Below are positions 1 through 36,035 of a stretch of DNA of 64,000 nucleotides, piece by piece. The stretch covers positions 6,260 through 70,259 of the forward strand of contig NW_018403488.1 of the NCBI RefSeq assembly GCF_002113885.1, written 5' to 3'. The position numbers and the translations under genes are program-made. Within the stretch, counting starts at the first letter, position 1; every line of letters starts with the position of its first letter. The stretch is from Mizuhopecten yessoensis (lineage: Eukaryota). Under the pieces are notes generated by a model. It saw nothing but the letters and a program-made list of their open reading frames with translations, made no database searches and had not been told where the DNA came from.

Positions 1-2127
1 TTATGCATACCCTAATAGCCTACAATGCATGTCCCCGTTTCTGTGGGTTACAGTAATTGTACATGCATTCCCTAATAGCCTACACTGCATTTCCCCGCTT
101 CTGTGTGTTAAAATAATTGTACATGCATACCCTAATAGCCTACACTGCATTTCCCCGCTTCTGTGTGTTAAAGTAATTGTACATGCATACCCTAATAGCC
201 TAGAGTGCATTTCCCCGCTTCTGTGGGTTACAGTAATTGTCCATGCATACCCTAATAGCCTACACTGCATTTCCCCGCTTCTGTGTGTTAAAGTAATTGT
301 ACATGCATACCCTAATAGCCTAGAGTGCATTTCCCCGCTTCTGTGGGTTACAGTAATTGTACATTCATACCCTAATAGCCTACAGTGCATTTCCCCGCTT
401 CTGTGGGTAACAGTAATTGTACATGCATACCCTAATAGCCTACAATGCATGTCCCCGTTGCTGTGGGTTACAGTAATTGTACATGCATTCCCTAATAGCC
501 TACACTGCATTTCCCCGCTTCTGTGTGTTAAAGTAATTGTACATGCATACCCTAATAGCCTACATTGCGTTTCCCCGCTTCTGTGGGTTACAGTAATTGT
601 CCATGCATACCCTAATAGCCTACACTGCATTTCCCCGCTTCTGTGATTCACAGTAATTGCCCTAAATTGATGATATCTGTTCGTGTAGGCATATCCTAAT
701 AGCCTACAGTGCGTTTCCCCGCTTCTGTGGTTTACAGTAATTGAACATGCATACGATAATAGCCTACACTGCATTTCCCCGCTTCTGTGGGTTACAGTAA
801 TTGTACATTCATACCCTAATAGCCTACAGTGCATTTCCCCACTTCTGCGGGTTACATGTACAGTAATTGTACATGCATACCCTAATAGCCTAGAGTGCAT
901 TTCCCCGCTTCTGTGTGTTACAGTAATTGTTTATGCATACCCTAATAGCCTACAATGCATGTCCCCGCTTCTGTGTGTTACAGTAATTGTACATGTATAC
1001 TCTAATAGCCTACAGTGCATTTCCCCACTTCTGCGGGTTACATGTACAGTAATTGTACATGCATACCCTAATAGCCTACAATGCATGTCCCCGTTTCTGT
1101 GGGTTACAGTAATTGGACATGCATTCCCTAATAGCCTACAGTGCATGTCCCCACTTCTGTGGGTTACAGTAATTGTACATGCATACCCCAATAGCCTACA
1201 GTGCATTTCCCCGCTTCTGTGTGTACAGTAATTGTACATGCATACCCTAATAGCCTAGAGTGCATTTCCCCGCTTCTGTGGGTTACAGTAATTGTACATG
1301 CATCCCCTAATAGCCTACAGTGCTTTTTCCCGCTTCTGTGGGTTACAGTAATTGTAAATGCATATCCTAATAGCCTACAGTGCGTTTCCCCGCTTCTGTG
1401 TGTTGCAGTAATTGTACATGCATACCCTAATAGCCTAGAGTGCATTTCCCCGCTTCTGTGTGTTACAGTGATTGTTTATGCATACCCTAATAGCCTACAA
1501 TGCATGTCCCCGCTTCTGTGTGTTACAGTAATTGTACATGTATACCCTAATAGCCTACAGTGCATTTCCCCGCTTCTGTGGGTTACAGTAATTGTCCATG
1601 CATACCCTAATAGCCTACACTGCATTTCCCCGCTTCTGTGGGTTAAAGTAATTGTACATGCATACCCTAATAGCCTAGAGTGCATTTCCCCGCTTCTGTG
1701 GGTTACAGTAATTGTCCATGCATACCCTAATAGCCTACACTGCATTTCCCCGCTTCTGTGATTCACAGTAATTGCCCTAAATTGATGATATCTGTTCGTG
1801 TAGGCATATCCTAATAGCCTACAGTGCGTTTCCCCGCTTCTGTCGGTTACAGTAATTGTACATGCATACCCTAATAGTCTACAGTGCGTTTCCCCGCTTC
1901 TGTGGGTTACAGTAATTGTCCATGCATACCCTAATAGCCTACACTGCATTTCCCCGCTTCTGTGGGTTACAGTAATTGTAAATGCATATCCTAATAGCCT
2001 ACAGTGCGTTTCCCCGCTTCTGTCGGTTACAGTAATTGTACATGCATACCCTAATAGCCTACACTGCATTTCCCCGCTTCTGTGATTAACAGTAATTGCC
2101 CTAAATTGATGATATCTGTTCGTGTAG
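1..2127. repeat. 60-bp minisatellite array, truncated by the window edge; lies in intron 1 of methyltransferase copy A
   Basis: Unit CCTAATAGCCTACACTGCATTTCCCCGCTTCTGTGGGTTACAGTAATTGTACATGCATAC repeats in register with the 60-nt lines, about 35 units. Confidence 0.97.
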
Positions 2128-2930
2128 ATTATATTTAAACTTTACAATAAAAGCTACCCGTTTGAGAAAGTTTACATTGTTAGTGAATATGCGCGATGCT
2201 GATGTTCACACGTGAAAAGTTCTTATATATTTGTATTTCTGAACGTTTTTTACGTAACTTTATTTAATTATTTATGACATTGTTTATGTCAATGTGTAGA
2301 AGAATTTAGTTTTTTCTATCAATTTACTATTCTTTTGTCTTTATGTATGGTACGATTGTATCAATGTGCGATCGTATTGAACGAGATTTGTTTTAATGCC
2401 TGGTATTTAATATCTGTTCTATTTTTGTTAGTGCATGGTATTTTTGTATTGTTGGTTCATTTGTCCTACATGTTTATATGAATAAACAACATAAATGTTC
2501 CGTTGAAGTAGAACACAAATACATTTACATTGGACAAGATATTTAACATAAAAATGTATAAATAAATATCATTCAACAGTGGAAGACGGTCACTGTTTCG
2601 GTATGTAAACCTGATTTCAGTCAACACCTTTGCCCAGCTTATATTTCCTGGTTTATATTCAATCAAACTCGGACTATTGTTAAGTTCTGTTTTTTCATAC
2701 TCATGGTTAAATGATCTGTTATTTTTTGACAACAATTGAAGAAGACCATAACGCATGTTTGCGAATACGTAGGTTAAACAGTGGATCTTATTTATTTTTC
2801 CTAAAGTATGTCATTTCAATTATGTAACCAAAGTCATAGTAATTATACATGTATGTACTTTAACACTTAATAGCCTTTTACGTTTACCTGTCACGATAAC
2901 AAAAAGGTTGTAGACAATACTGATCGATTT

Positions 2931-4953
2931 CTTCTTCCCCTCCCTCCCGTAACCTTTATAGAAACAACTGTCTTTCCCTCCCTCCCGTAGCCTTTATATA
3001 AACCAACTGTCGTCCCCTTCCTCCCGTAACCTTTATAAAAACAACTGTCTTCCCCTCCCTCCCGTAACCTTTATAGAAACAACTGTCGTCCCCTTCCTCC
3101 CGTAACCTTTATAAAAACAACTGTCTTCCCCTTCCTCCTGTAACCTTTATAAAAACAACTGTCTTCCCCGTTCTCCCGTAACCTGTATAGAAACAACTGT
3201 CTTCCCCTCCCTCCCGTAACCTTTATAGAAACAACTGTCTTTCCCTCCCTCCCGTAACCTTTATATAAACAACTGTCTTTCCCGCCATCCCGTAACCTTT
3301 ATAGAAACAACTGTCNNNNNNNNNNNNNNNNNNNNNNNNNNNNNNNNNNNNNNNNNNNNNNNNNNNNNNNNNNNNNNNNNNNNNNNNNNNNNNNNNNNNN
3401 NNNNNNNNNNNNNNNNNNNNNNNNNNNNNNNNNNNNNNNNNNNNNNNNNNNNNNNNNNNNNNNNNNNNNNNNNNNNNNNNNNNNNNNNNNNNNAGAAACA
3501 ACTGTCTTCCCCTTCCTCCCGTAACCTTTATAGAAACAAATGTCTTTCCCTCCATCCCGTAACCTTTATAGAAACAACTGTCTTCCCCTTCCTCTCGTAA
3601 CCTTTATAGAAACAACTGTCTTCCCCTCCCTCTCGTAACCTTTATAGAAACAACTGTCTTCCCCTCCCTTCCGCAATCTTTATAGAAACAACTGTCTTTC
3701 CCTTCCTCCCGTAACCTTTTTAAAAACAACTGTCTTCCCCTCCCTCCCGTAACCTTTATAGAAACAACTGTCTTTCCCTTCATCTCGTAACCTTTATAAA
3801 AACAACTGTCTTCCCCTCCCTCCCGTAACCTTTATAGAAACAACTGTCTTCCCCTTCCTCCCGTAACCTTTACAGAAACAACTGTCTTCCCCTTCCTCCC
3901 GTAACCTTTATAGAAACAAATGTCTTTCCCTCCATCCCGTAACCTTTATAGAAACAACTGTCTTCCCCTTCCTCCCGTAACCTTTATAGAAACAACTGTC
4001 TTCCCCTCCCTCTCGTAACCTTTATAGAAACAACTGTCTTCCCCATCCTCCCGTAACCTTTATGGAAACAACTGTCTTTTCCTACATCCCGTAACCTTTA
4101 TAGATACAACTGTCGTCCCCTTCATCCCGTAACCTTTATAGAAACAACTGTCTTCCCCTTCCTCCTGTAACCTTTATAGAAACAACTGTCGTCCCTTTCC
4201 TCCCGTAACCTTTATAGAAACAACTGTCTTCCCCTCCCTCCCGTAACCTTTATAGAAACAACTGTCTTCTCCTCCCTCTCGTTACCTTTATAGAAACAAC
4301 TGTCTTCCCCTTCCTCCTGTAACCTTTATAGAAACAACTGTCGTCCCCTTCATCCCGTAACCTTTATAGATACAACTGTCTTCCCCTCCCTCCCGTAACC
4401 TTTATAGAAACAACTGTCTTCCCCTTCCTCCTGTAACCTTTATAGAAACAACTGTCTTTCCCTCCATCCCGTAACCATTATAGATAAAACTGTCTTCCCC
4501 TCCCTCCCGTAACCTTTATAGAAACAACTGTCTTCCCCTTCCTCCTGTAACCTTTATAGAAACAACTGTCGTCCCCTTCCTCCCGTAACCGTTATAGAAA
4601 CAACTGTCTTCCCCTCCCTCCCGTTACCTTTATAGAAACAACTGTCTTCTCCTCCCTCTCGTTACCTTTATAGAAACAACTGTCTTCCCCTTCCTCCTGT
4701 AATCTTTATAAAAACAACTGTCTTCCCCATTCTCCTGTAACCTTTATAGAAACAACTGTCTTTCCTTCCATCCCGTAACCTTTATATAAACAACTGTCTT
4801 TCCCGCCATCCCGTTACCTTTATAGAAACAACTGTCTTCCCCTTCCTCTCGTAACCTTTATGGAAACAACTGTCTTCCCCTCCCTCCCGTTACCTTTATA
4901 GAAACAACTGTCTTCCCCTCCCTCCCGTAACCTTTATAGAAACAACTGTCTTC
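2931..4953. repeat. 38-bp minisatellite array containing an assembly gap
   Basis: Unit CCCGTAACCTTTATAGAAACAACTGTCTTCCCCTCCCT; successive starts at 3061 and 3099. Confidence 0.97.
3316..3493. other. Assembly gap (N run)
   Basis: Run of n characters inside the 38-bp array. Confidence 1.
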
Positions 4954-5885
4954 TTTGAGTACGGGCACGGTTCATCCAACACCCATTTTATTCATTGTTA
5001 CTTTGCCTACACACAGTACGTTAAGCTGTGGCAATGCTTAAGCAGGAGAGGAAGCAGTATTTGTTGGTAACATGATATAACTAGACTGCACCAATGTTTT
5101 CAAACCATATAATTACTACAATCCACCCAGTGTACGGTAACATAGCACACCCTCATCACCTACATTGAAATATTCCTCTTTTGTGAGTCACATTAGATGT
5201 CCTTCACCCAACACATTTGTGTAATACTCATCCGCTAGAGATGGTTTACGTTCTTGTTTGATTGGATGCTGTTGATTTCTCTACGCGGAAAGATTTTGTT
5301 TGATTTGTTTGTATTCCTGAACGTTATTTTTCGCAATTGTAGTGTGATTATTGATTATGCTTGTTATGAAATAGGTCTTTGCTTGTTCCTGTTTTTAATT
5401 TTTGTCTTACAATATGCCCATTGTTTTCGCCTTTGTGTGTGGTACGTTAGTGTATATGTGCGATCTTTTATTTTACCAATACGTGATTTTTGATAAATAT
5501 TATTTGTGTTGTAAATGCACGGTATTTTTACCTAATGCATCGTGCGTCTTATTTTGTTTATCTGTGGTGCATTTAGTGTTAAAATTTGCCATGTTTTCGT
5601 CTCTGGTTTTGTAATACATTTCTCCTACGTGTACATATTATTAAACAACAAGACTTCCCCGTTGATCAAAAAAACATTGCATTAGACAAAATATTATACA
5701 CAAAAATACACATAAAGGTATTTTTAAAGTTTTTTAAATAAATTCAACAGTGGAAGTCGATTACCTGTTTGGCAGGCAAGCATGAGTGTAGTCAACACCA
5801 CTAGTCAGCTTACATATATTACGTGGATTAAATTCAATTAAACTTTTCTGCATACTCAACGTTCAATAACCTGGCAAATCGTTGG

Positions 5886-7700
5886 CAGACACCCAGCTGC
5901 CATATGGATGTGTGACAGACATCCAGCTGTCATATGGATGTGCAACAGACACACATCTGTCATATGGATGTGTGACATACACCCATCTGTCATATGGATG
6001 TGTGACAGACATCCAGCTGTCATATGGATGTGTGACATACACCCATCTGTCATATGGATGTGTGCATACACCCATCTGTCATATGGATGTGTGACATACA
6101 CCAATCTGTCATATGGATGTGTGACAGACATCCAGCTGTCATATGGATGTGTGTAGACACTCAGCTCTCACGTTGATGTGTGACAGACACCCAGCTGTCA
6201 CGTGGATGTGTGATAGACACCCAGCTGTCACATGGATGTGTGACAGACATCCAGCTGGCATATGGATGTGTGCAGACACTCAGCTCTCACGTTGATGTGT
6301 GACAGACACACAGCTGTCACGTGAATGTGTGACACACACACAGCTGTCATATGATGTGTGACAGACACACAGCTGTCATATGGATGTGTGACAGACACCC
6401 AGCTGTCATATGGATGTGACAGACACTCAGCTGTCATGTGGATGTGTGACAAACACAGCTGTCATATGATGTGTGACAGACACCCAGCTGTCATATGATG
6501 TGTGACAGACACACAGCTGTCACGTGAATGTGTGACACACACACAGCTGTCATATGATGTGTGACAGACACACAGCTGTCATATGGATGTGTGACAGACA
6601 CCCAGCTGTCATATGGATGTGACAGACACTCAGCTGTCATGTGGATGTGTGACAAACACAGCTGTCATATGATGTGTGACAGACACCCAGCTGTCATATG
6701 ATGTGTGACAGACACACAGCTGTCACGTGAATGTGTGACACACACACAGCTGTCATATGATGTGTGACAGACACACAGCTGTCATATGGATGTGTGACAG
6801 ACACCCAGCTGTCATATGGATGTGACAGACGCTCAGCTGTCATGTGGATGTGTGACAAACACAGCTGTCATATGATGTGTGACAGACACCCAGCTGTCAT
6901 ATGATGTGTGACAGACACACAGCTGTCACGTGAATGTGTGACACACACACAGCTGTCATATGATGTGTGACAGACACACAGCTGTCATATGGATGTGTGA
7001 CAGACACCCAGCTGTCATGTGGATGTGTGACAAACACACAGCTGTCATATGATGTGTGACAGACACACAGCTGTCATATGGATGCGTGACAGACACCCAG
7101 CTGTTATATGGATGTGACAGACGCATAGCTGCCACGTGAATGTGTGACACACACACAGCTGTCATATGGATGTGTGACAGACACCCAGCTGTCATATGGA
7201 TGTGACAGACACTCAGCTGTGATGTGGATGTGCGACAGACACTCACCTGTCATATAGATGTGTGACAGACGCTCAGCTGTCACGTGGATGTGTGACAGAC
7301 ACACATCTGTCACGTGAATGTTTGACAGACACCCTTCTGTCAGGTGGATATGTGACAGACACCCTTCTGTCATGTGGATGTGTGACAGACACACAACTGT
7401 CACGCATATGTGTGACAGACAACCAGCTGTCACGTGGATATGTGACAGACAACCAACTGTCATATGTTTCAGTGACAGACACACAGCTGTCAGGTGTATG
7501 TGTGACAAACACACAGCTGTCACGTGGATGTGTGACAGACACCCAGCTGTCACGTGGATTTGTGACAGACACCCAGCTGTCATGCTGGTGTGTGACAGAC
7601 ACACACCCGTCACGTGTATGTGTGATAAACACACAGCTGTCACGTGAATGTATGACTGACAACCAGCTGTCTCGTGTTTGTGTGACAGATACGTTGTGTG
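5886..7700. repeat. About 30-bp minisatellite array
   Basis: Unit TGTGACAGACACCCAGCTGTCATATGGATG with 28-30 bp variants, about 60 units. Confidence 0.96.
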
Positions 7701-8404
7701 ACAGATACATATCTGTCACTTGTACAATGTATGTATGACATAGTAGTATTGTATCACATGGAAGACAGTACATGTGCTAGTGCCTTATAGGAACATTAAT
7801 TCAATTTAATTTATTAAATCGGATATAAAACTGAAATAGCGCAAAATGTACAAATAACTGATTACAGGTAAAGGTAAGATATCGGAAATATCTAAAACAA
7901 AATAAGAGAAAATGTCAAAGTTGTAGTGATTGTGTGTAAATTAGGCAATTGGACTAAATATTTCTGACATATAACTACAACTGTATCTACAGGTGCGCAG
8001 TATTCAAATTCAGTTTTTCACATTCGTCAGTTTCGTTACTGTTGCATCATTTCTATTGGAAATTATCATGTAAACAAAATTTGCATTGATCTACGTTTTC
8101 TTAACATACGCATTCGAAAGCTACGGTAATACCTTACGCAATGTACACTGCAATCCTGCTCTGACAACTGTGTCAGATTGGGGTGTGCTTAGTAACACAT
8201 AGAACACGATACAGCGGAGGTAAGAGAGTCTAAGTGTACACCTCTTGTATGTTCTATTTTACATCTAGGGATAAACAGAATAAAGCAGAAAACGGTTAAT
8301 TTGTTAAATAATGATCAGTTGCTGGTGGTTTATTACCTGCAATTACTTCCTTTTGAACACAATGCAAAAGATAGGACGAATGATGTACTTTGTGCATGGA
8401 CCAT

Positions 8405-10003
8405 TTCTATGTATGTCCGTATCGCGCAGGCTTAACGGTCCGACTTGTGATGTACTACGTGTGATTATATATAATTTCCTCCCTCTGTGGGTATGTCCGT
8501 ATCGCGCTGGCTTACCGGTCCGACTTGTGATGTATTACGTGTGATTTCCTCCCTCTGTGGGTATGTCCGTATCGCGCTGGCTTACCGGTCCGACTTGTGA
8601 TGTAATACGTGTGATTACCTCCCTCTGTGGGTATGTCCGTATCGCGCTGGCTTACCGGTCCGACTTGTGATGTAATACGTGTGATTACCTCCCTCTGTGG
8701 GTATGTTCGTGTCGCGCAGGCTTACCGGTCCGACTTGTGATGTACTACGTGTGATTATATATAATTGCCTCCCTCTGTGGGTATGTCCGTATCGCGCAGG
8801 CTTACCGGTCCGACTTGTGATGTATTACGTGTGATTATATATAATTACCTCCCTCTGTGGGTATGTCTGGGAGTAGATGGGCTGTATGGTCTGACTAGTG
8901 AATATTACGTGAAATTATCTCCCTTTGTAGGTATGCCCGGGAGTGGCTGGGCTGTATGGTCTGACTAGTGAATTATTACGTGTAATCATCTCCCTTTGAA
9001 GTTATGTCCGCGAGTGGCTAGGCTGTATGGTCTGACTAACGATGTATTACGTGTAATTATCTCCCATTGTAGGTATGCCCGGGAGTGGCTAGGCTGTATG
9101 GTCTGACTATTGAATTATTACGTGTTATTATCTCCCTTTGTAGGTATGCCCGGGAGGGGCTAGGCTGTATGGTCTGACTAACGATGTATTACGTGTAATT
9201 ATCTCCCTTTGTAGGTATGCCCGGGAGTGGCTAGGCTGTATGGTCTGACTAACGATGTATTACGTGTAATTATCTCCCTTTGTAGGTATGTCCGCGAGTG
9301 GCTTGGCTGTATGGTCTGACTAACGATGTATTACGTGTAATTACCTCCCTTTGTAGGTATGTCCGCGAGTGGCTTGGCTCTATGGTCCGTCTAGTGAATT
9401 ATTACTTTGTATTCTTCAATGCTTGGTGCAGTACAATTCACAGAGGCAGGGCAGGTGGCATTCTTATTGAAGTTACTTTATATATTGATGAAAACTATTA
9501 TTACACAAGGAATAATTTACAGAAAAACATAGAAACTTACTTTGTAACTGCCTGGAATACTTTAAAGACAAATAGATAGAGCTTGTGATCAGCTTGGCAG
9601 GCAGGAGTCTAACTGACCTAACAATGATATTCCCGCCAAGACTGACCAACAAGGGATTATAAAAATAGCGACCAATAAAAAGCAAGACAAAACATGGACT
9701 CTTGACTTAAATCACTGGGCGTAAACTGTTACACTGAAAATAACAACACATTACACAAAATACATAGAACACCGCACCCTGTAACATGTAACGCCAACAA
9801 ATGGACAAACACATACACAAAACACACTGGGAACATACAAATGGATATTTATACACAATTATAACATTTACTATAAATGACAATAAAATTGACCCTGTTA
9901 CAGGTATGTGCGCGAATGGCTTGGCTGTATGATCCGTCTAGTGAATTATTACGTGTAATTATCTCCCTTTGTAGGTATGTCCGGGAGTGGCTGGGCTGTA
10001 TGG
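8405..10003 (+). repeat. 70/71-bp minisatellite built from the intron1/exon2 splice-acceptor junction (copy A); interrupted by an insertion at about 9410-9895
   Basis: Unit ...TACGTGTAATTATCTCCCTTTGTAG|GTATGTCCGGGAGTGGCTGGGCTGTATGGTC...; the last unit is the real acceptor and the start of exon 2 at 9975. Confidence 0.93.
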
Positions 10004-10162
10004 TCGCCACCAGGATCGTTTCACTGGATGACTCAGACAAATACTTCATCCCACAGTCACTAAAACCGGGACTGAAAGCTCTGGGTTTCACATTTTTCTA
10101 TCCTGTCATGGGTCCTTTTACAGACAAAGCGAGGAACTGCTTCAAAAAGGACGGGCCTAAAG
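9975..10162 (+). CDS. Rv2258c-like SAM-dependent methyltransferase, copy A, exon 2
   Basis: TTTGTAG|G...AAAG|GTAGG, 188 nt; encodes (R)YVREWLGCMVATRIV...NCFKKDGPKG. ERYVREWL matches the N-terminal winged-helix region of the Rv2258c family as I recall it. Same length as copy B exon 2. Confidence 0.92.
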
Positions 10163-10320: not shown

Positions 10321-10431
10321 GTTTTGGCTATGGAGACATGCCACCTGGTGTTGTTGAAGCCATTGAAGAGAAAACAGGGGACCCTGACAGCATTGTAGAG
10401 GAGCTCCTTAAGCCGATCACCAAGCCCATAG
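10321..10431 (+). CDS. Methyltransferase copy A, exon 3
   Basis: TTTTATAG|GT...ATAG|GTAAG, 111 nt, phase 1-1; encodes GFGYGDMPPGVVEAIEEKTGDPDSIVEELLKPITKPI. Confidence 0.92.
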
Positions 10432-10878
10432 GTAAGCTTTCTATGTATTTAGTGAACATCAATGAGTTAACATCATAGCTCATAGTTACATTGTTAGGTT
10501 AGTGTTTTTCTTACTACGCCCAGTCGATGTCCTTTCATACATTACATCGGCTTATAGACCAAGCTTACCATAATGGTGGTTTGGTATTTCCCCGTCTCAC
10601 AAGAGCTCTAACGATATAAATAGACTCGTGAAGTTTGTAATTTCGAGAGATCATGTAAAGAAAAGTTTATTTTGAACACTAGAATTCAATCTTCTTCAGA
10701 CTTTGCATTTTTATTGTATCAAATATATATGTTTCTAGTAAACGACACATGCATTGAAAACATACAATCAAACTTGTAGGTGTGAAAATTGTTGATTCCT
10801 TGAGAAATTAAGGAACGCTAGATGTTAGTTTATATTAAAAAAAAAAAAAAGAGGTCTTACTGAGTGTGTAACTTTCAG

Positions 10879-11444
10879 AGTCGTTGAACACCATACTTGA
10901 CCTAGGCTGTGGAGGAGGATGTGCAACTAGAGCGTTAAGAAAGCGTTTTCCAAAGGCAGTCATATACGGCGTCGATTATAGCGAGGATGCGCTAACCAAA
11001 GCAAAATCAACTGCCAAAGCTCAAGGCACAGAAAACCTGCATTTTGTAAAGGAAGACGTGACATCATTGCCCGCCGACTGGACAGGGAAGTTTGACTGGG
11101 TCATCCTGTTAGACGTGCTTCATGATCTGCCTGATCCAGTTAATGCCATGAAAGAGGTTCGCCGCGTCTTGAAGGACGACGGAGTCGTGTCCATCGTTGA
11201 TCCAGACCTACATAGTAGCCATAGAGACAACATAGGAGATGCTAACTTGGCAGGTGTAGGGTACGCCATCAGTTCTGTGATTTGTCTCCCTTGCAGTTTG
11301 TCGATAGACGGCGCAGCTGGTCACGGCATGGGCTGGGGAACCGAAAACAAAGAAAAGTTTTTAACCGGTTCTGGCTGGCTAGTGCAGGACAAACGAAATA
11401 TCGAAAGTCCGTTTGCTTTGAACTTCACTTGTGTCAAAGCATAA
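10879..11444 (+). CDS. Methyltransferase copy A, exon 4 (class I SAM-binding domain, ends at stop)
   Basis: ACTTTCAG| acceptor in phase; motif I ILDLGCGGG, then YGVDYS, FDWVILLDVLHDLPDP and LKDDG. Confidence 0.95.
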
Positions 11445-14400
11445 CCAAAGAACTAGCAAGTGAATCTCAGCATGTTAAGATATTACTCTTTTCTTCCGGG
11501 GAAAATGCTTTTAACCAGATATTGCTTTGAGAACACCAGACACTGTATATATAAGAGATAGTATACAGCACAGCTTTTTATCAAATATTATCACAACACT
11601 AAACGCGACGATGTAACAGCTGTACACATTTTCCAATTCAACATTAAATTTTCTCCTAAAAACTATATCTCGGAATTCTTGGATTGTGTTAAGACTATTA
11701 GAAATAAGACTTTACATTTCGATTAAGGAAGAATGCTTGTTGAAGTAATATAGTGTACACGCGATACTGATAACACAGTAAACCACAGCATCAACATGAA
11801 AGGTAGAACTCTACCTCACCATCATGTAAGTGGTGAAACTGGGACAAGTTTTATGTCTGTGAAATAATCTGTATGTATGACGACATTTGAGTCAGATTGT
11901 AATGCACTTTTTTGTAAAATAGCAATTAATCAGTAAATGGGAATATGGTTTTTCTTGAGTAGGTCATCTCTAAGTTACGTCATCGAGTCATACCATTAAG
12001 ATAACCCTAAACATGTGTCATAAGCTTGACCTTAAACGCACATCATCAGGATGACCTTAAGGTCGAGCTGTTACGTTGGCCCTAAGGTCAAGCTGACACG
12101 ATTACCTTAAAACATAGATTTAAGTCAAACAGTTATGAACGGATTATTATTTTATTTTTATCAATAAGTTATTTATCTACAACTAAAGCTTACTGTTTAA
12201 CGTTATACAGTCGTAGTTGATAAAAATATGAATGTTGTTCTCTTCTATGATGTCCGTGTTTTATTAGATTAGGAAAACAACTGATATTTAAATATTCATA
12301 GGTGATTTTTTTTTTTTACCATGATACGGGCAAGTATGCAGAGGACACACTGTGTAAGCAACCTGTGTTGACCCTTGTGTGTGATTCTTGTGGGGGTTTT
12401 CTGTGATATTATGTAAACAGAACAGCCACCAAACAGCTGTAGTCGTTTGAGTGTTTGATTCGATGGTCTGTACTGGGTTATTTGAAGTGAACTGCTGAGC
12501 TGCACGGTCCAAATACAACTTGGCGACAAGCAGTAAACATGCAACAAAAGAGAAAGAATAGTACATGCATTCGTCAAGAAAATGTATACATGTCTTTATT
12601 TGCTTGTGAGAGTTTTGATGCCAATTTGTTTTCGAACTCTAATTATCAAATTAGACTATATGTGATTGACATCTTACACAGGACAACCAATCAAAATGGA
12701 AAATCGTATGTCGTGTTTGGAATGTATTAAATTTATACTAACAATAGTAGCAAAACATAATAAGTCTCATAGATGTTTGATACATGTAACTAAGTAACAT
12801 ATTGTTATTCTATCTATTGATAACTGAATAAAAAGCATATTTGGAAACAAAGCGTTGAGTTTATCTGGGTTAATTGATCCCGTGTTACCATCCTGTCTGA
12901 ACTACGGATGTTCCAATGAACAAGTAACGGTATGTGACAGTGAGAAACAGGGGAAGAGACTTGGTCCAATGCAAATGGAGTGAACATATTAAAAAAGGAT
13001 TCTTTTCGCATACAAATCGATTTATTACACAAATCAAAGTATATGTTCGGTCAGCGTTAGACCAAACATTACGTTGAAGGGTCATGATGGTGAACAGCCA
13101 AACTCAACTGATTGGGATTAGGATGGTAACCTGGGGTCAAGGGGCGAAAATACGACGAACAGTAGTTGAAGGCGTACATTAACCACATACTTTTTATTGC
13201 AGCAGGGACTTATTACAGGAACATGAACGATACATACACATACATGGAAAATGTATTTACGATGAAATTCTTACACTTTACTTAGCCTAACTCTTGCCTA
13301 ACTAAATATCTAAGACTTGCATGTTCGACAATAAAAGCTCTTCTCGTCTTATTGTTTAGGAATCTATAAAATTTAATAAAAAAAATACTGTAGAAAATTT
13401 TATTTATTACATATAATACATGTCTACAAAAATTCGATTCCGTATGTTATACGTGAAGGAAATGTGTATTTTTTGGTTTTGAACATATTTTAATGTTTTT
13501 CTGTTGGTCTATGTGACCTGGTGGGGGTCAAGATCTTTTGATTTCAGAAGATAAACGGACGGTTATCAATTCTGGCAACCTGCCATATATCAAGACGCAA
13601 ACGTCGACATTTTGGATTATATTTGATAGTGTGCCTTGTTATTTCGTAGTCACTACCCTGGTTCTCGCGATGAGAACATGACATTATTGGATTTGAACTT
13701 CATGAACACGACAGCTGTCGTCGATGAAACAGTAGACGTTTAACCTTCTGGCCCACCTGGTCTTATTATCTTGAGCTTTTCAAGTACCTCCATTTAAGCA
13801 TATATGTTCATATTTCGCCATCTTATTATCATTTTTGAGTTGGAATTTCTGTTTAGTTGAAACTATTTATTCCATTGGTTTATTATTTTAGTTGATTGAA
13901 TTCAGATAGTGATAAATTTAGGCGATCATGTAACAACGGGACTGTGTTTTTTTATTTTGATATTATTTTTCTTTTCTGATGGCTATTCGGCCATCACAAA
14001 TTAATACTTTTTCAGATAGATTAGAGGCACATTCTATTTATAAATGTACATTACTGAATAATGAACTCAAATAAGGAGAGATGTCAAATGCTTGTAAGTA
14101 AAGAAAGGACATAAGGATAAAGATGTAGAAACAAAGATAGTATATAAAAAAAATCAACGTAGCAAGCTTTCACTCTGAATTCAGAAAAGGAATCCCATAT
14201 TAAGTCAGACGTTGGTTTTCTTATATCTTTTCATATTTATTCATATACCGATAACAAAATTTGATGCATGGACCTATTATTCTCTACTGTATATTGCACA
14301 TTTTAAACTGTGTTAAAACACTCGATGAAATAGTAAACATGGCAAGACTTAACTTTATGGAAAGGTTAACAACAGGCCGTTCGTCATGCTCTACTTCTTA

Positions 14401-16632: not shown

Positions 16633-16734
16633 TATAAAGAAAGTGAGCCGGGGGATTTTTTGTTTCCCCCTTTTTTAACACATCTTTCATAATAACTATG
16701 TTTTAGCAGAAAAGCCACACAACAACTAAACTGT

Positions 16735-26689: not shown

Positions 26690-26820
26690 CAAGTTACCTT
26701 GAAGCGGCTAGTTGGGAGCAATATAACAGCAAAGAAAAATTGCAACTGCAAGACTAGGTTCGAACACGGGACTTTCGAACTCTAGACGGGCGCTCTCATG
26801 TTTAGCTACCTGGTCGCCAG
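26690..26820 (-). mobile_element. tRNA-derived (SINE-like) element upstream of copy B exon 1
   Basis: Minus strand GGCGACCAGGTAGCTAAACATGAGAGCG...GTTCGAACC (A- and B-box-like) followed by a T5 tract; no clean cloverleaf. Confidence 0.55.
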
Positions 26821-27050
26821 GTATCGAACTCTTCCAGTTACTGTACATCTGCATCGTACTCCATACTGACAATATTGTACTAAAAGGCTTCCATCGCTCA
26901 CCACTACATGTATATATAGGTAACAGTTCAATAACAGTAGTCATACGTGTCTCGCCTTGGAAATAGAGAGAGGAAATAGAGAGGCTTTCATTATCAATGA
27001 TATAATTGCAAGTCCTAGAAAATTTAAGGGTCGATATTTGAAATAGCAAA

Positions 27051-27217
27051 ATGGATTTGGAAACATATTCTAAAATCATTACAGATTTTATTGCTGGAAG
27101 TTACATCACCTCTGCCATCAGGCTAGGAAAGGACCTGGGACTTTTTGATGAGCTAAAGAAACTTGACAAAGCCGTCTCTTCACAGCAGTTAGCAGACGCT
27201 TGTAATCTGAAAGAGAG
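27051..27217 (+). CDS. Methyltransferase copy B, exon 1 (not in the ORF track)
   Basis: AAAATGG start; encodes MDLETYSKIITDFIAGSYITSAIRLGKDLGLFDELKKLDKAVSSQQLADACNLKE(R); ends AG|GTAAG in phase 2 and joins G-TAT of exon 2 to give LKERYVREWL. Confidence 0.92.
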
Positions 27218-30200
27218 GTAAGATTCTGTGTATTTAGGCAGGTGAATCAAAGGCCATGCTATGAAACGTTTAATTCGAGCGAAGGAACATTATCATCAAT
27301 TGCTATCAATGTATTCGTATGCTTATATACGGTTTCTATATGCGTTGCACGAGTAAAGCGTGGTTAACGTACTTAACATCATAAAGATAGACATTTAAAA
27401 ACAGACAAAGCCTGCTGACAGTAGGTTTTTGTGTCTTTAAACAGGAGAAAAAGAAATGAAAAATGAAAGATTTTTATTAATCGAGGCATTATTGAACCGC
27501 AATAAGCATATCAGTGTCCGGGACACATAAAGACAGACAGGAAATGTGTATTTATGTGTGATACTTTTTGTATCTATGGTTTGATGTCTGTTTTGGCTTA
27601 TGTGTTAAGGTCGTGGGATTTTATTTTATTTATATTTCGTGCAAAACTTTATGATTTTTTTGTTTGATTGTATTGTTTTGTAACGGTGTGTGTAAGGTTT
27701 TGTTGATATGAGCTGTTTTTGACAATTTATAGTGTTTTCGTTAATGTGTCACTTGTTTTTGTTGAGTTACACTGTTGTTTGTTTCCTTTTAAATATTACA
27801 TCAATTTTTCTTCTCTCCTTTATCTTTACATTATTCTTTCACTTGGTATGAAAATATTGAAACACGTTATTAGTACCTTTTGTATTTATATTATTAAATC
27901 AAACGTCCTTGGTGTCCATTTATTTTTATTAGGGAAACATATTTGTAATTTTTCAAAAATGTCTCTAGTCAATAAAATAAGTAAACATATGCAATGAAAT
28001 GAAGTTTATACTAATGTGTAACTTGTCATGTGCAGTTTATCTGTGGCGTATTTGTATTGATATTGTATGCTTTTGTGTATTGTTGGTATACTTGTACTAC
28101 ATGTACATGTAAATATGATTAAATCACAAATATATCCGGTTGATGCACAACAAACATATAAACATTACACAAGATAATAAACAAACAAAAATATAAATAG
28201 ATTTCTAAAGGCACATAAATGTCACAGAACAGTTGCATGATCGGTAGGCAAGCGCACGTCTAGCCAACAACCTTTAGTCAGCCTGTATTACGTAATTTCA
28301 TTAAAACTCAGTCTAGTGTTTAACTCTGTGTCTGCATACTCAAGGTGGAAATACCCGGTGTGACGTCATGTGGAGCAGAACATAATGCAATTATTTTGTT
28401 AATACATTATTTTAAAAGTGACGGTGAATTCTAATTTTCATAAAAATAGGTCCTGTCAATAACGTCACTAAGACAATGACATGCGGTCACTGCTGTATCT
28501 ATTACAACTCGTATAGGTTCAGTGACACGTCTGTTACGTTAATGAGTCTACATACTCCGGAGATTGCCCGAACCTTAATAGACACACCTATCTTCTTAGA
28601 TTAGCTGCACGGTTCATAACAATCTCACTTAATTCATTATTATTTTTGCCAATAAATCTTCCTAATCTACATTGAAATATTCCTCTTTTGTAAGTAACAG
28701 CAGATGTCCCACACTAACACATTTGTATTGTTTAATGAAGGTAACATATAAGACCACAATAATACTCACCCGCTTGAGAAAGTTTAAGTTCTCGTTAAAG
28801 TGGGTGGTGTTGATTTTCCCGCGCGAAATGTTTTCGTTTGATTTAATGTATTTCAGAACGCTTTTTCGTAATTCTAAAGTGAGTATTGTATGCTTGTTTG
28901 AAAAAAGGTTTTTAATTGTTCGTTTTGTATTTGTGTCTAAAAACGTTTTCCCTTTTTAAAACGTCTTCCCTTTTTGTGAGGTACGTTTGTGTCTACGTGC
29001 AATCGGGTTTTTTTTAATACGTCTTTTTTATTCATAATATGTTTTGTAAATAAGTTTTTTTACTAAATGCCTCGCGCATCTTTTGTTGTTGGTCTGTGGT
29101 GCATTTCGTATTAATGATTGACGGGGATTTTTCGTTTGTGTATCTATATTGTTGGTATATCTGTTTGACATGTATATAGAATTAAACAATAACAAAATTC
29201 CGTTGATACAAAACTATTTTCATTAGACAAAATAGTATACACACAAATATACATACATAATAGTGTTTTAGATATCACTCAACAGTGGAAGTTGGTCACC
29301 TGCTCGGTATGCAAACTGTATTAGTCAGATTACATTCCGTGGTTTCTATTCAATCAAACTCTGACTATTTTTAAGATCTTTTACTGGTTACTCAACGTAA
29401 AATAATCTGTAATTATAATGACAATTAAATCAGATCACGATGCATTGTTTGTGAATACGTAATTTGACGGTTAATCCTGTTTGGTGTAGGGTACTTCATG
29501 TTTGGCATAGATGTACGTGCTTCTTTTACGTTCATCTTTAAGTATTCTTTTATTTAAAATTAAAATAACATTCAATTTAGAAAGATTGATGAGAATTGTT
29601 GTCGACTTATATCGATTGGTTTGTCGATATGTTTAAAAAGAACTACTGTAAAAGTATTATGATATGTATAAATAAGACCAAGAAGAAAAACACATACTGA
29701 ATTTATTTCAGGATATGTATCCTTTTATGTAAGGCATTTTACAAGTGAAGCATATGAAAGCCTGTTTTTGTTGTTGGCTGTTTTAACTATGCCTTCTATG
29801 ATGCAACAGCGGTGACAGACACCCAGCTGTCTCGTGCATTAGTGACATAGAAGTATCACATCACATGGACAACAGTACGTGTGCTAGTGCCTTAAAAACC
29901 ATAATTAGATTTGATTTACTATATCGGGAAATCAGAATTAAAGTCCAAACTGTACAAATAAGTGATTACAGGTAAAAGTAAGAAATCGAAATAAACATTG
30001 AAAACTAATTAAAAGAAATAAGTGATAGTTAGTGTACGTTAAAGTGGCAGTGGGCCTAAGTGTGTTGGACGTGTAGCTATCTGCTGGTGCGCAGTATTTA
30101 AATTAGTATTTGAACGATAGCAAAAACATTCGATTGGTTTCTATTGAAAATTATTCTTTATTCAAAAGGTGCATTGCTCTACGAATTTTTAAAATCCAAG

Positions 30201-30479: not shown

Positions 30480-32470
30480 TTTATGATGTATTATGTGCAG
30501 GGAACTTTCTTTTTTAATGTATTTCCGAGAAGACGCAGGCATACTTGTCTAACTTATATGATGTATTACGTGTTATTATCTCCCTTTGTAGGTATGTCCG
30601 GGATTGGTTGGGCTGTTTGGTCTGATTAGTGGTGTATTACCTGTTACTATCACCCTTAATATGTATGTCCAGAATTGGCGTAGCTGTATGGTCTGCCTAT
30701 TGATTTATTGCGTGTTATTATCTCCCTTTGTATTTAGTCCGGGATTGGCTTGTCTATTGATGTATTACGTGTAATTACCTTCCTTTAAAGTTAGTCCGGG
30801 AGTGGCTTGGCTGTACGGCCTGACTATTGCTGTATAACGTGTAATTACCTCCCTTTGTAGTTAGTCCGGGAGTGGCTTGTCTGTACGGCCTGACCATTGG
30901 TGTATTACGTGTAATAATCTCCCTTTGTAGTTAGTCCGGGAGTTGCTTGGGTGTACGGCCTGACTATTGCTGTATTACGTGTAATAATTTCCCTTTGTAG
31001 TTAGTCCGGGAGTTGCTTGGGTGTACGGCCTGACTGTTGATGTATAACGTGTAATTATCTCCCTTTGTAGTTTGTCCGGAATTGGCTTGACTGTAAGGCC
31101 TGACTATTTATATATTACGTGTAATTATCTCCCTTTGTAGTTTGTCCGGGAGTGGCTGGGCTGTACGGCCTGGCTATTGATATATTACTTGTAATTATCT
31201 CCCTTTGTAGTTAATCCGGGAGTGGGTGGGCTGTACGGCCTGACTATTGATGTATTGCGTGTAATTATCTCCCTTTGTAGTTAGTCCGGGAGTGGCTTGG
31301 GTGTACGGCCTGACTGTTGATGTATAACGTGTAATTATCTCCCTTTGTAGTTAGTCCGGGAGTGGCTGGGCTGTACGGCCTGGCTATTGATGTATTACGT
31401 GTAATTATCTCCCTTTGTAGTTAGTCCGGAAGTGGGTGGGCTGTACGGCCTGACTATTGATGTATTACGTGTAATTATCTCCCTTTGTAGTTAGTCCGGG
31501 AGTGGCTTGGGTGTACGGCCTGACTGTTGATGTATTACGTGTAATTATCTCCCTTTGTAGTTAGTCCGGGAGTGGCTGGGCTGTACGGCCTGGCTATTGA
31601 TGTATTACGTGTAATTATCTCCCTTTGTAGTTAGTCCGGAAGTGGGTGGGCTGTACGGCCTGACTATTGATGTATTAAGTGTAATTATATCCCTTTGTAG
31701 TTAGTCCGGGAGTGTAAGTTTTAGAATCTTCCGACTGTAGTCAGATTCCCATACAATCAACAAATAAATTCACGTCTGGATTTTCGAATTAACTTCCAAA
31801 AATTACTCCCTCGTGGAGGTCAAGGTCGGATTCACGGTGTTCACTGTAAATACCATACAAAAACAGTTCAATGCTTAATTATCTCCCACTGTAGGTTTGT
31901 CCAGGACTCGCTGGGTTGATGGTCTTACTATTGATGTATTACAATTACGTAGGTATGTCCAGGAGTGTTTGGGCGGTATGGTCAGACTATCGATATATTA
32001 CGTGCAATTTCCAACCTTTGTGATATTTCTGGGATCGGCTGGGCTGTATAGTCTGACTAGTGATGTATTACAATTAGTTATCTCCCTTTGTAGGTATTTC
32101 AGGGAGTGGATGGGCAGTACTGTCCTACTATTGGTGCATTACGTGTAATTTTCTCCCTTTGTAGGTACAGTATGTATGTCCGCGAGTGGCTTGGTTGTAT
32201 GGTCTTACGTGTTATCTCTCTTCGAATGTATGCCCGGGAGTGGCTGGGCTCTTTGGTCTGACTAGTGATGTATAACGTGTAATTACCTCCCTTTGTATGT
32301 ATGTCCGCTAGTGGCTTGTCCGTATGGTCTGACTAGTGATGTATTACGTGTACTTATCTCCCTCTGTAGGTATGCCCGGGAGTGGCTTGGCGGTATGGTC
32401 TTACTTGTGATGTATTATGTGTTATTATCTCCCTTTGTAGGTATGTCCGGGAGTGGCTTGGCTGTATGGT
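30480..32470 (+). repeat. 70-bp splice-acceptor-derived minisatellite (copy B); interrupted at about 31714-31875
   Basis: Unit GTAATTATCTCCCTTTGTAG|TTAGTCCGGGAGTGGCTTGGGTGTACGGCCTGACTGTTGATGTATAACGT, about 25 units; the last unit is the real acceptor at 32440. Confidence 0.93.
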
Positions 32471-32628
32471 CGCCACCAGGATCGTTTCACTAGATGACTC
32501 GGACAAATACTTCATCCCTCAGTCACTCAAATCGGGACTTGACGTTCTTGGTTTAACATTTTTCTATCCTGTCATGGGTCCTTTAACAGTCAAAGTGAAG
32601 AACTGCTTCAAAAAGGACGGGCCTAAAG
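32441..32628 (+). CDS. Methyltransferase copy B, exon 2
   Basis: TTTGTAG|G...AAAG|GTAGG, 188 nt; encodes YVREWLGCMVATRIV...KDGPKG. Confidence 0.93.
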
Positions 32629-32869
32629 GTAGGTGTTTTGCGGTTGTATACAATGTCCTGTAATTGTTTTCCCAGTAGATACTGGTATGACCAGTTAAAA
32701 TGGCAATATAGCCGAAAGTGAGACTGCTAAATCTATTACAAAGTAGGTAAATATATCATTTAATACTTATATTTTTCTTTCGCTCTACCACACAACCAAA
32801 AATAGTCAAAAGAAATTAACTATTTATGAAATTATATTAACTAGGACGTTCCAATCTTATGTGTCATAG

Positions 32870-32980
32870 GCTTTGGCTATGGAGACATGCCACCTGGTGT
32901 AGTTGAAGCTATTGAAGAAAAATCAGGGGACTCCGAGGACACTGTGCAACAGCTCCTTAAGCCTATCACCAAGCCCACAA
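32870..32980 (+). CDS. Methyltransferase copy B, exon 3
   Basis: TCATAG|GC...ACAA|GTAAG, 111 nt; encodes GFGYGDMPPGVVEAIEEKSGDSEDTVQQLLKPITKPT. Confidence 0.93.
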
Positions 32981-33409
32981 GTAAGTTTTTCATGTGTTTA
33001 GTAAAAGTTCATGTTCTATTGCGCCTCTCATTGTCATCGTTTACATCAAAACTCATAGTTACATTTTATAGCGTTTTTCTCATCACGCCCAGTTAATGTT
33101 CTTTTATACATTACATCGTCTTAAAGATTATATCCACCAGAATTGTATTGTGGTATTTTTTTTCCGTCTCACAAAATATTTGAGGATAAAAACAGAATCT
33201 CGATGGTTGTAATTTCGATTGATCGTAAAATGAAAAGTTTATTTGGAAAAGTAGACTTTCATCTTATTCAGACTCTTCATCTTTCATCTTTTTTTAGTAT
33301 CAGTTTTAAAACATTTCTAGCGTACGAGACATGTATTGAAAACATACGATCAAACTCATATAATATATTAATATAAAACATAATGTCTAACTTAGTGTGT
33401 AACTTTCAG

Positions 33410-33987
33410 AGTCGTTGAACACCATACTTGACCTAGGCTGTGGAGGAGGATGTGCAACTAGAGCGTTAAGAAAGTGTTTTCCAAAGGCAGTCATATACGG
33501 CGTCGATTATAGCGAGGATGCGCTAACCAAAGCAAAATCAACTGCCAAAGCTCAAGGCACAGAAAACCTGCATTTTGTAAAGGAAGACGTGACATCATTG
33601 CCCGCCGACTGGACAGGGAAGTTTGACTGGGTCATCCTGTTAGACGTGCTTCATGATCTGCCTGATCCAGTAAATGCCATGAAAGAGGTTCGCCGCGTCT
33701 TGAAGGACGACGGAGTCGTGTCCATCGTTGATCCAGACCTACATAGTAGCCATAGAGACAACATAGGAGATGCTAACTTGGCAGGTGTAGGGTACGCCAT
33801 CAGTTCTGTGATTTGTCTCCCTTGCAGTTTGTCGATAGACGGCGCAGCTGGTCACGGCATGGGCTGGGGAACCGAAAACAAAGAAAAGTTTTTAACCGGT
33901 TCTGGCTGGCTAGTGCAGGACAAACGAAATATCGAAAGTCCGTTTGCTTTGAACTTCACTTGTGTCAAAGCATCGCCAACGACCTAG
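33410..33987 (+). CDS. Methyltransferase copy B, exon 4; the spliced CDS is 167+188+111+578 = 1044 nt, 347 aa
   Basis: ACTTTCAG| acceptor in phase; ILDLGCGGG motif I; all four exons join without a frameshift. Confidence 0.95.
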
Positions 33988-36035
33988 CAAGTGCATCTCA
34001 GTGAATCATGGCGAGATATTAATGTGTTTCCCCCGGTGAAACACTTTTAACCAGATGTTGCTATCAGAACACTAGATATTGTCTTTTTACGAGACAGCAT
34101 ACAACACAGCTTTTTATCAAACATTAAAACTGGACGGGACAATGTTATAGGTGTACACATTTTCCTAATTCATCAGTAGGTCTCTGCTAAAAATTATATA
34201 TAGGAATAATTTAATGATGAGAAGTAAGTATTTATATTTCGATTAAGGAAGAATGCTTATTGAAGTAATATAATGAATACACGATACTGATAACACAGTA
34301 AACCACAGCATCAACATAAAAGGTAAAACTCTACTTCACCATCATCCCACAAGAATACAGCTATTTCATCTGCACACACCACCTGTGGCATCCGCCGCTA
34401 TGCCTGACGTTTTTTTCCAGAAAAGTTCGTGGTCGCCTATACTGTAAGACACAGAATATATATTTGTATTCAATGTAAACACTAATAGTTCATTATCTGT
34501 AACGCCGATAACCCTTAAGTCATAGCATTAGTATAACCTTACATATGTGTCATAAGAACAGCCATCCAAACAGCTGTAGTCGTTTGAGTGTTTGATTCGA
34601 TGGTCTGTACTGGGTTATTTGAAGTGAACTGCTGAGCTGCACGGTCCAAATATAACTCGGCGTCAAGCAGTAAACATGCAACAAAACAGAAAGAATGGTA
34701 CAAGCATTCGTCAATAACATGTATACGTTTCTTTATTTGCTTGTGAGAGTTTTGATGCCAATTTGTTTTCAAACTCCATTTATCAACTTAGACTATATAT
34801 ATTTGACATTTACACAGGACAAATCATATATCCAGTAATGTAAAATGGAAAATTGTATTTCGTATGTGGAACGTTTCGAATTTATACTAACAATAAATTA
34901 TCTCAGACAATCTAGTAGCATAGCATTATAAGTCGTCTAGATCTTTAATACATGTAACTATGTAACTCATTTTTATTCTATCTATTGATAACCAAATAAA
35001 AAAGCATATTTAGAAAAAGAAGTGTTGAGTTTATCTAGGTTAAGTGATAACCTTTGTTACCTTGATGTCTGAACTACGGATGTTCCAATAAACAAGTTAT
35101 AAGTTATGGTATGTGACAGTGAGGAATAGGTGAAGAGACTTTTTCCAATACTTATGGAGTGTTAATTTTGAAATGTCATTATTTTTGTCTACAAATCGAT
35201 TTATTTCATGCATCAAAGTTCGGTCAGCGTTAAATACTAACATTATATGGGAAGGTCAGGTTGATGCATAGCCAAATGCAACTATTTTGGGTGAGGATGG
35301 AAAACTAAAACTGAAGTCAAGGGGCGAAAATACTAACGGCATGAGTTAAAGGTGTACATCTAACCGAACATGTTATTACAGTAGGGACCCATTACAGGCA
35401 CATATAGATAAATGAAAAATGTATTTACGATACAATTCTTACATGTTACTAAGCCTAGTTCTTATGTTAACTAAATATCTAAGACTTGAATGTTCGACCA
35501 TTATGGAATAAATGAAATTTAAAAACAAAACTCAATTTATATAATACATGCATAGCAAAATTCGATTCCGTTTGTTATACGCGAAAGTATTTGAATGTTT
35601 TACTGTTGGTGTATTTGACCTTGAAAAAGGTCAAGATCATTGCATTTGAGAAGATTTGCGGCTATTAATTCTGGTACTATGCCCTATATCAAGACGCGAG
35701 CGTCAATATTTTGAATTATGTTCCATAGTGTGGCTCGTTATTTGGTAGTTTCTGCTCCTATTCTCGCGATAAAAATATGTGACTTTACTTTGAATTCGTC
35801 TACATTTGCATGGCAGCTGTCGTCGATGAAACAGTAGACGTTTAACCTTCTGGACCACCTGGTCTTATTGTCTTAGGGTTTTCAAGTGCCTCCATGTAAG
35901 CATATATATGTTCATATTTTGCCATATCATAATCATTTTGAGTTGGAAATTCTGTTTAGTTGAAACTGTTTTTCCATTGGTTTATTATTATTGATTAAGT
36001 TCAGATAGTTATGACGATCATGTAACAATGGGACT

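What the first reader, a model, noticed from the sequence alone, without database searches (positions are those of the whole stretch)
1..7790. Three arrays whose single-copy progenitors are still visible in paralogous sequence
Seen: the 60-bp unit matches one unamplified copy at about 5146-5200 (CACACCCTCATCACCTACATTGAAATATTCCTCTTTTGTGAGTCACATTAGATGT) and another at about 28660-28710. The 38-bp unit matches one copy at about 28566-28600, followed by the same flank GCACGGTTCAT. The 30-bp unit matches one copy at about 29812-29835, followed by the same flank CACATGGA...GTGCTAGTGCCTT. Inference: these arrays are not inserted satellite families but arose in place from ordinary intron DNA after the duplication, so the locus gives before-and-after views of minisatellite birth. 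Collapse of the arrays in copy B is the alternative.
Basis: partly seen in the sequence, partly recalled or inferred. Interest (0 to 1): 0.7.

Follow-up and report, generated by a model that had tools for sequence, protein, structure and literature searches.

The report
Minisatellites born inside scallop gene intron
In a scallop enzyme gene that exists as neighbouring duplicates, three short intron stretches are repeated dozens of times in one copy but occur once in the other copies, so they likely multiplied on the spot by ordinary DNA slippage, one of them from the remains of an old jumping element; a tidy example of a known process.

Summary
Observation confirmed; interpretation partly supported. 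The window holds two tandem scallop SAM-methyltransferase genes (A, B). The 60-, 38- and 30-bp arrays lie in intron 1 of A; each has collinear single-copy counterparts, as reported. As arrays they were found only at this locus, and DNA contigs from 4 runs show B's sites as single copies. Outgroups point to gain for the 30-mer (single in paralog C) and the 38-mer (single in a third local copy and in dispersed relatives); the 60-mer is unpolarised. Two corrections. The 38-mer's source is not ordinary intron DNA but a decayed piece of a dispersed ~370-390-bp hammerhead-bearing (retrozyme-like) element. And intron 1 of A has an internal duplication that is not clearly younger than the A/B split, so B is not a clean 'before' state. 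A 6-bp direct repeat at exactly one unit length flanks 2 of 9 single-copy sites. This fits the known microhomology/slippage model of minisatellite birth. Side finding: the adjacent 71-bp array is the exon-2 splice acceptor plus exon start, repeated in 9 paralogs; the transcripts seen use only the last copy.

The parts
1..2127 (+). 60-bp minisatellite in intron 1 of gene A (segment A-i); 33 anchored units here, 13 more upstream across 5486 N; a 28-bp piece of its right flank is also copied into the array at 661-688 and 1776-1803
2128..2932 (+). intron module, copy A-i (homologous to 5201-5885 and 28711-29625)
2933..4953 (+). 38-bp minisatellite (about 10 + 38 units around an N gap), starting at the junction of the internal duplication
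4925..5005 (+). last 38-bp unit plus flank: decayed piece of a dispersed hammerhead-bearing element
5145..5202 (+). single copy of the 60-bp unit (segment A-ii)
5203..5885 (+). intron module, copy A-ii; lacks the equivalent of B 29410-29810
5886..7735 (+). 30-bp minisatellite (61 units by TRF to 7689) with degenerate right end
8400..9405 (+). 70/71/80-bp array of A: copies of the exon-2 acceptor plus the first ~29 nt of exon 2; one more copy at 9904
9975..10162 (+). gene A exon 2 (exon 1 lies on scaffold C76420, L010:4855-5021)
10321..10431 (+). gene A exon 3
10879..11444 (+). gene A exon 4 (Rv2258c-like SAM methyltransferase domain); 562/566 identical to exon 4 of B
26849..26909 (+). single copy of a 55-bp unit that forms an 8-copy array upstream of gene A (off window)
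27051..27217 (+). gene B exon 1
28557..28640 (+). single 38-site plus flank in B; relic of the dispersed element
28659..28710 (+). single 60-site in B
29811..29846 (+). single 30-site in B, bounded by GTGACA direct repeats exactly 30 bp apart
30534..32440 (+). 70/71-bp acceptor array of B
32441..33990 (+). gene B exons 2-4 (32441-32628, 32870-32980, 33410 to about 33990)

Best explanation
The three arrays are locus-private minisatellites in intron 1 of a duplicated scallop methyltransferase gene, and each likely arose in place when one 30-60-bp stretch was duplicated by slippage or unequal exchange and then expanded, likely without function. Shown: collinear single copies in paralogous DNA; arrays confined to this locus; single state of B in other samples; correct splicing of the whole intron. 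Inferred by parsimony: gain of the 30-mer on the A lineage after the A/B split, and gain of the 38-mer in segment A-ii from a decayed retrozyme-like element at the breakpoint of an internal duplication. Inferred only by analogy: gain of the 60-mer. Inferred: the first step used short flanking direct repeats (visible for the 30-mer and the off-window 55-mer only), and later unequal exchange homogenised the units and copied flank pieces into the 60-bp array.
For: Own-genome searches: 60-mer 28 of 28 matches at this locus or the adjoining scaffold end; 38-mer 21 of 21 local; 30-mer 23 of 26 local and 3 on a 229-bp contig made only of the array. DNA contigs of 4 runs from 4 studies cross B's three sites collinearly with no back-joint; two do so in one contig of 2546 and 2661 letters. 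Paralog C, outside the A+B clade (98% support), has one 30-site (score 42, background maximum 17). The 38-site is single in B, in A-i and in the 27 fetched dispersed loci, none of which has a tandem repeat of that part. A 6-bp exact repeat at the exact period flanks the 30-site of B and the 55-site of C; background rate 1.2-1.6%. Units within arrays are 88-91% alike, while the 60-mer is 29/43 from its single copies, close to the 67-74% of the surrounding intron. The same pattern recurs for a 55-mer upstream of A and a 21-mer at 50502-55040. A-type exon 1 is joined to 9975 in 2 of 4 RNA-type runs.
Against: The 60-site has no outgroup: its two single copies are 39/43 alike and may be one lineage, and the module tree groups A-ii with B (88%; site patterns 8:19:19), so B may be a chimera and collapse is not excluded. 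A collapse to one unit would leave the same flanking repeat, so microhomology does not polarise. 7 of 9 sites tested lack a repeat longer than 3 bp at the exact period, including both 60-sites and both 38-sites. The paralogs exchange sequence (exon 4), so they are not independent witnesses. Negative genome searches are weak: B's own 38-site query found only local matches although the family exists, so the 60- and 30-sites could also be unrecognised relics.
Confidence: 0.8

Rival explanations
1. The arrays were ancestral and collapsed to one unit in the other copies (at least the 60-mer).
For: The 60-site singles in A-ii and B may be one lineage (39/43 alike; module tree); tandem duplications with flanking microhomology revert readily (PMC13167724, passages).
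Against: For the 30-mer it needs two independent exact collapses (B and outgroup C); for the 38-mer it needs collapse in B, in A-i and in every dispersed copy fetched.
Confidence: 0.12
2. The arrays are the internal repeats of inserted mobile elements or members of dispersed satellite families.
For: The 38-mer's source is part of a dispersed element (150 candidates, 37 of the 40 scored are dispersed matches to this part); that element carries other private minisatellites in at least 2 of 27 loci.
Against: The arrays themselves match only this locus; both flanks of each array are continuous with paralogous single-copy DNA, with no inserted element ends; the 60- and 30-sites of B and A-ii do not score against the element's profile.
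Confidence: 0.04
3. The single copies in B are short-read assembly collapses.
For: The assembly breaks at these arrays (gaps, scaffold end) and seems to have collapsed a 286-bp duplication nearby.
Against: Contigs of 4 runs cross the B sites at flat depth with no back-joint.
Confidence: 0.02
4. The arrays are kept for a function such as tuning expression or splicing of gene A.
For: They lie in intron 1 of an expressed gene; no direct evidence.
Against: Each paralog has different private arrays; B-type transcripts are present without them in 1 of 4 runs.
Confidence: 0.02

Closest known systems
Minisatellite birth from single-copy DNA flanked by 5-10-bp direct repeats (Haber and Louis 1998; Taylor and Breden 2000; both known only through PMC3389668, PMC6947457 and PMC13167724, passages; originals not read), now called microhomology-mediated tandem duplication
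   Same: One unit in the unexpanded state, many in the expanded; 6-bp direct repeat at exactly one unit length at the 30-site of B and 55-site of C.
   Different: Here the unexpanded state is read from paralogs in one genome; 60- and 38-sites show no such repeat today; units are 67-90% from their single copies, so these are old events.
Transposable-element-derived minisatellites (Alu, B1, LTR; PMC3389668 and PMC6947457, passages)
   Same: The 38-mer comes from part of a dispersed element, and other copies of that element carry different private arrays.
   Different: The donor is a hammerhead-bearing retrozyme-like element; my searches showed no report of that donor type, in a library that lacks most subscription papers.
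Non-LTR retrozymes with type I hammerhead ribozymes (PMC7229834, passages; 10.64898/2026.07.22.740005, abstract)
   Same: About 370-390-bp unit, 37% GC, type I hammerhead layout in the family majority; mussel repeats are about 350-390 bp.
   Different: Copies fetched are decayed (72% to the majority), mostly one unit plus a partial; the window's intron copies keep about 80-150 bp and no ribozyme.
Splice-site minisatellites (human F7 intron 7, CBS, 6-16, LMNB2, PDGF; PMC1557585, passages)
   Same: For the neighbouring 71-bp array: an exon boundary is repeated into the intron and the copy next to the exon is used.
   Different: Those repeat a donor; this repeats an acceptor with AG|GT and is shared by 9 paralogs.

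Membership tests
Locus-specific minisatellite | Head-to-tail array of 10-100-bp units | tested here: met
Locus-specific minisatellite | Array confined to one locus | tested here: met
   search is blind to diverged relatives
Locus-specific minisatellite | Copy-number variation between individuals | not testable with these tools
Microhomology-mediated birth (Haber-Louis type) | Unexpanded single copy at the homologous site | tested here: met
Microhomology-mediated birth (Haber-Louis type) | Direct repeat of 5-10 bp one unit apart in the single copy | tested here: inconclusive
   6 bp in 2 of 9 sites (30-site of B, 55-site of C); 3 bp or less at the exact period in 7 of 9, including all 60- and 38-sites
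Microhomology-mediated birth (Haber-Louis type) | Direction is gain, shown by an outgroup | tested here: inconclusive
   met for the 30-mer and 38-mer, no outgroup found for the 60-mer
TE-derived minisatellite (38-mer) | Unit aligns within a dispersed repeat | tested here: met
   38 unit and B site beat 60 of 60 shuffles against the element profile; nhmmer E 5.5e-6 for B and 9.5e-5 for A-ii
TE-derived minisatellite (60-mer, 30-mer) | Unit aligns within a dispersed repeat | tested here: inconclusive
   one 60 unit hits the collinear profile position with 1 of 60 shuffles as good; a second unit and both single sites do not; 30-site not at all; single-sequence searches local only
Non-LTR retrozyme (the dispersed donor) | Type I hammerhead motif | tested here: inconclusive
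   layout readable in the majority line and several copies; Rfam Hammerhead_1 hit in 1 of 16 loci, 25.8 bits, below the gathering score of 34; minimum-energy folds did not give the hammerhead
Non-LTR retrozyme (the dispersed donor) | Unit of 150-450 bp, GC under 50% | tested here: met
   terminal repeat period 351-387 bp in 7 loci, other periods in 4, none in 16 of 27; GC 37%
Non-LTR retrozyme (the dispersed donor) | Tandem multimers | tested here: inconclusive
   fetched copies are about one unit plus a partial
Non-LTR retrozyme (the dispersed donor) | Self-cleavage and circular RNA | not testable with these tools
   needs in vitro assay and RNA data
Recursive-splicing ratchet points (71-bp array) | Acceptor directly followed by donor (AG|GT) | tested here: inconclusive
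   AG|GT in 8 of 15 units of A, 7 of 23 of B, 12 of 14 on C5373; 13 central units of B keep AG but read AG|TT
Recursive-splicing ratchet points (71-bp array) | Splicing intermediates at the sites | not testable with these tools
   contigs show only the exon 1 to 9975 join; one decoy (9904) was laid and had no join; contigs drop rare forms

The most novel reading that the evidence does not exclude
The 71-bp array beside the finding is a ladder of dual acceptor/donor (AG|GT) sites, kept in 9 paralogs and absent from the two AG|AT outgroup genes, through which the long first intron is removed stepwise or mis-splicing is corrected by re-splicing; this would be what lets the intron tolerate repeated minisatellite births, including one seeded by a dead ribozyme retroelement.
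Probability: 0.05. Interest if true: 0.7.

Novelty: new member of a known kind. Interest (0 to 1): 0.33.

Why it matters
The first step of minisatellite birth is rarely seen; here one gene family supplies at least five before/after pairs (60, 38, 30, 55, 21 bp) in a group of animals where tandem repeats are the largest repeat class (11.3% and 21.7% of two scallop genomes; PMC5700196, PMC10225492, passages) and fill 37% of this window. Scanning scallop paralog pairs genome-wide would give a sizeable test set for the microhomology model and an estimate of how much comes from decayed mobile elements. The mechanism itself is known, so this is an illustration, not a discovery.

Tried and rejected
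No paralogous site was found for the 87-bp (17926) and 43-bp (38882) arrays, and only the left flank for the 41-bp array (55831). No outgroup 60-site in 11 regions searched by nhmmer. The idea that the 60-site continues the dispersed element: no score gain from adding it. The 30-, 55- and 71-bp units are not part of that element. The background contained the tested sites and was redone. Alignments of intron 1 of C and C3109 to B were too gapped to trust apart from the 30-site, so the 29- and 35-bp arrays of C3109 are not counted as pairs. No genomes of related species were available, so no species outgroup was tested. A profile search of the whole genome could not be run, which leaves diverged relatives of the 60- and 30-sites open. 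Two look-ups of earlier findings returned nothing. Supplements were not read; those of PMC7229834 might list scallop retrozymes.
Full report
Setting. The window is G000:C161:6260-70259. Self-BLAST shows a tandem duplication of about 22 kb. Each copy holds a four-exon gene for an Rv2258c-like SAM methyltransferase; relatives are named from scallops, and the upstream paralog C is identical to a protein named as Mizuhopecten yessoensis. Gene B lies wholly in the window. Exon 1 of gene A is at the end of another scaffold (C76420), which stops inside the 60-bp array, while C161 begins inside it. RNA-type contigs of 2 of 4 runs carry A-type exon 1 joined to position 9975 (the RNA label of those two runs is the tool's guess), so the three arrays sit in one spliced intron of about 17 kb counting gaps. 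Tandem repeats cover 37% of the window and 15% of 19 other fetched loci.

Observation. All four single-copy matches are real, collinear with 67-74% identical paralogous blocks, and above every background window. Details are in the observation check. Units within arrays are 88-91% alike (27, 39 and 12 full-length anchored units compared).

Intron 1 of A contains an internal duplication: A-i = single 38-site, flank, 60-bp array, module; A-ii = 38-bp array, flank, single 60-site, module, then a deletion of about 400 bp and the 30-bp array. B has one segment with all three sites single. The left edge of the 38-bp array is the duplication junction, and the left third of its unit aligns to B only with a gap. 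An older module pair also exists at the start of intron 1 in both genes.

Are they local? As arrays, yes: 28 of 28, 21 of 21 and 23 of 26 matches are at the locus, the other 3 on a 229-bp contig consisting of the array. B's single state is real: contigs of 4 DNA-type runs from 4 studies cross the sites without back-joints, two in single contigs; in one run the 38-site lies close to a contig end; one run may be the source sample, and contigs drop rare alleles.

But the 38-mer's source is dispersed. A profile of the three local 38-sites found two further single copies in fetched DNA. One of them, used as query, gave 150 candidates, and 37 of the 40 scored are dispersed matches at 69-87% over this part; the other gave 254 candidates. 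In 27 fetched loci (two are the same place) the shared element is about 370-390 bp, 37% GC, with a terminal direct repeat and a degenerate type I hammerhead layout; Rfam support is below threshold (1 of 16 loci). It works like a non-LTR retrozyme (PMC7229834, passages), but membership is not established. The 38 unit and B's site score against its profile above 60 of 60 shuffles; the 30-, 55- and 71-bp units do not; the 60-mer is inconclusive. None of the 27 loci repeats the 38-bp part, but at least two carry other private arrays made from other parts of the element (19 bp in L054, 24 bp in L052). B's own query had missed this family, so the local-only results for the 60- and 30-sites are weak negatives.

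Direction. A and B form a clade against C (98%); the 30-site is single in B and C, and its right flank groups A with B (75% against 41-45%): gain on the A lineage. The 38-site is single in B, A-i and the dispersed copies: gain in A-ii. The 60-site has only A-ii and B as singles; they are 39/43 alike against 29/43 to the array, and the module tree gives (A-i,(A-ii,B)) at 88% with site patterns 8:19:19. So the internal duplication is not clearly younger than the A/B split, B could be a recombinant of the two segments, and collapse is not excluded for the 60-mer. Exon 4 is 562/566 identical between A and B while introns 2-3 are 79-82% and exons 2-3 are 92% and 84%; one RNA-type run shows B-type exons joined to the same exon-4 contig, so conversion between the copies is likely real and they are not independent witnesses.

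Mechanism. Two more pairs fit the pattern: a 55-mer (8 copies upstream of A, single in B and C; A/B/C order there unresolved) and a 21-mer at 50502-55040 (one degenerate unit at about 24130). Of 9 single sites tested, 2 have a 6-bp direct repeat at exactly the unit length (background 1.2-1.6%; by hand about P = 0.008 for 2 of 9, though sites are paired and not independent); 7 have 3 bp or less. This matches the model in which DNA flanked by 5-10-bp repeats duplicates by slippage or unequal crossing-over and then expands (PMC3389668, PMC6947457, PMC13167724, passages; the 1998 and 2000 originals were not read). A 28-bp piece of right flank copied twice into the 60-bp array points to later unequal exchange (inference). 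No evidence for function was found.

Adjacent array. The 70/71-bp repeat before exon 2 is the acceptor region plus the first 29 nt of exon 2. It occurs in 9 paralogs (3-23 units, counting the real junction), is absent from 2 outgroup paralogs whose junction reads AG|AT, and could not be scored in 2 loci where exon 2 was not found; all 46 genome matches are at these genes. The last 43 intronic bases are 81% alike among 7 paralogs against 55% for intron 2. Many units read AG|GT like ratchet points or dual-specific sites (PMC8605326, introduction; PMC10809524, abstract), but 13 central units of B have lost the GT, and contigs show only the last acceptor in use. Donor-type arrays are known from human genes (PMC1557585, passages), and two unchecked notes of this scan describe such arrays elsewhere in this genome. 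Most likely it is a tolerated array anchored by selection on its last unit (inference).

Verdict. Seven paper searches (listings only unless named above) showed no report of this locus, of a retrozyme-derived minisatellite or of a family-wide acceptor array, in a library without most subscription papers. New member of a known kind; interest 0.33.

Noticed in passing
window 8400-9405, 9904, 30534-32440; paralogs on C76420, C3109, C2110, C2403, C5373: Tandem copies of the exon-2 splice acceptor plus first 29 nt of the exon (many AG|GT) in 9 paralogs, none in the two AG|AT outgroup genes; only the last acceptor seen in transcripts.
   Followed up: partly
window 10860-11442 and 33390-33973: Exon 4 of A and B is 562/566 identical amid about 80% introns: likely a recent gene-conversion tract, supported by RNA contigs of one run.
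   Followed up: yes
window 11387-11672: All 4 RNA-type runs have a loose end before 11387 that matches 11646-11672, at about 2-3 times exon depth, and a 275-bp match lies on small scaffold C32977: likely a 286-bp tandem duplication of the CDS end and 3' UTR collapsed in the assembly, or a circular RNA. Not tested in DNA runs.
   Followed up: partly
L011:8437-8739, L028:4149-4390, L019:5253-5480, L041-L070: Dispersed 370-390-bp element with a degenerate type I hammerhead layout (retrozyme-like), at least 150 candidate places; other copies carry private 19-, 24- and 26-bp arrays.
   Followed up: partly
L010:4270-4714 and window 26849-26909: 55-bp array upstream of gene A, single in B and C, with a 6-bp repeat at the exact period in C.
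   Followed up: yes
window 50502-55040 and 24130-24150: 216-copy, 98% pure 21-bp array whose paralogous site has one degenerate unit.
   Followed up: partly
window 19608-21206 and 40388-42960; 14788-16633 and 37695-38341: 75-bp arrays shared by both duplicates are about 93% alike while the duplicated flanks are 70-85%; 27/53-bp arrays are also shared. Possible conversion between arrays.
   Followed up: no
window 26757-26789: Depth spike and loose ends in DNA runs over a tRNA-like motif: likely the head of a dispersed SINE just before the 55-site.
   Followed up: no
window 58179-59131 and 60976-61662: Low-complexity 6-24-bp repeats (possibly coding on the minus strand) and a 120/257-bp TGACCTTGACC-rich repeat.
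   Followed up: no
C76420:3593-3760 (L018): Exon 1 of paralog C is 95% identical in protein to B while its other exons are 56-72%: possible exon-1 conversion.
   Followed up: partly
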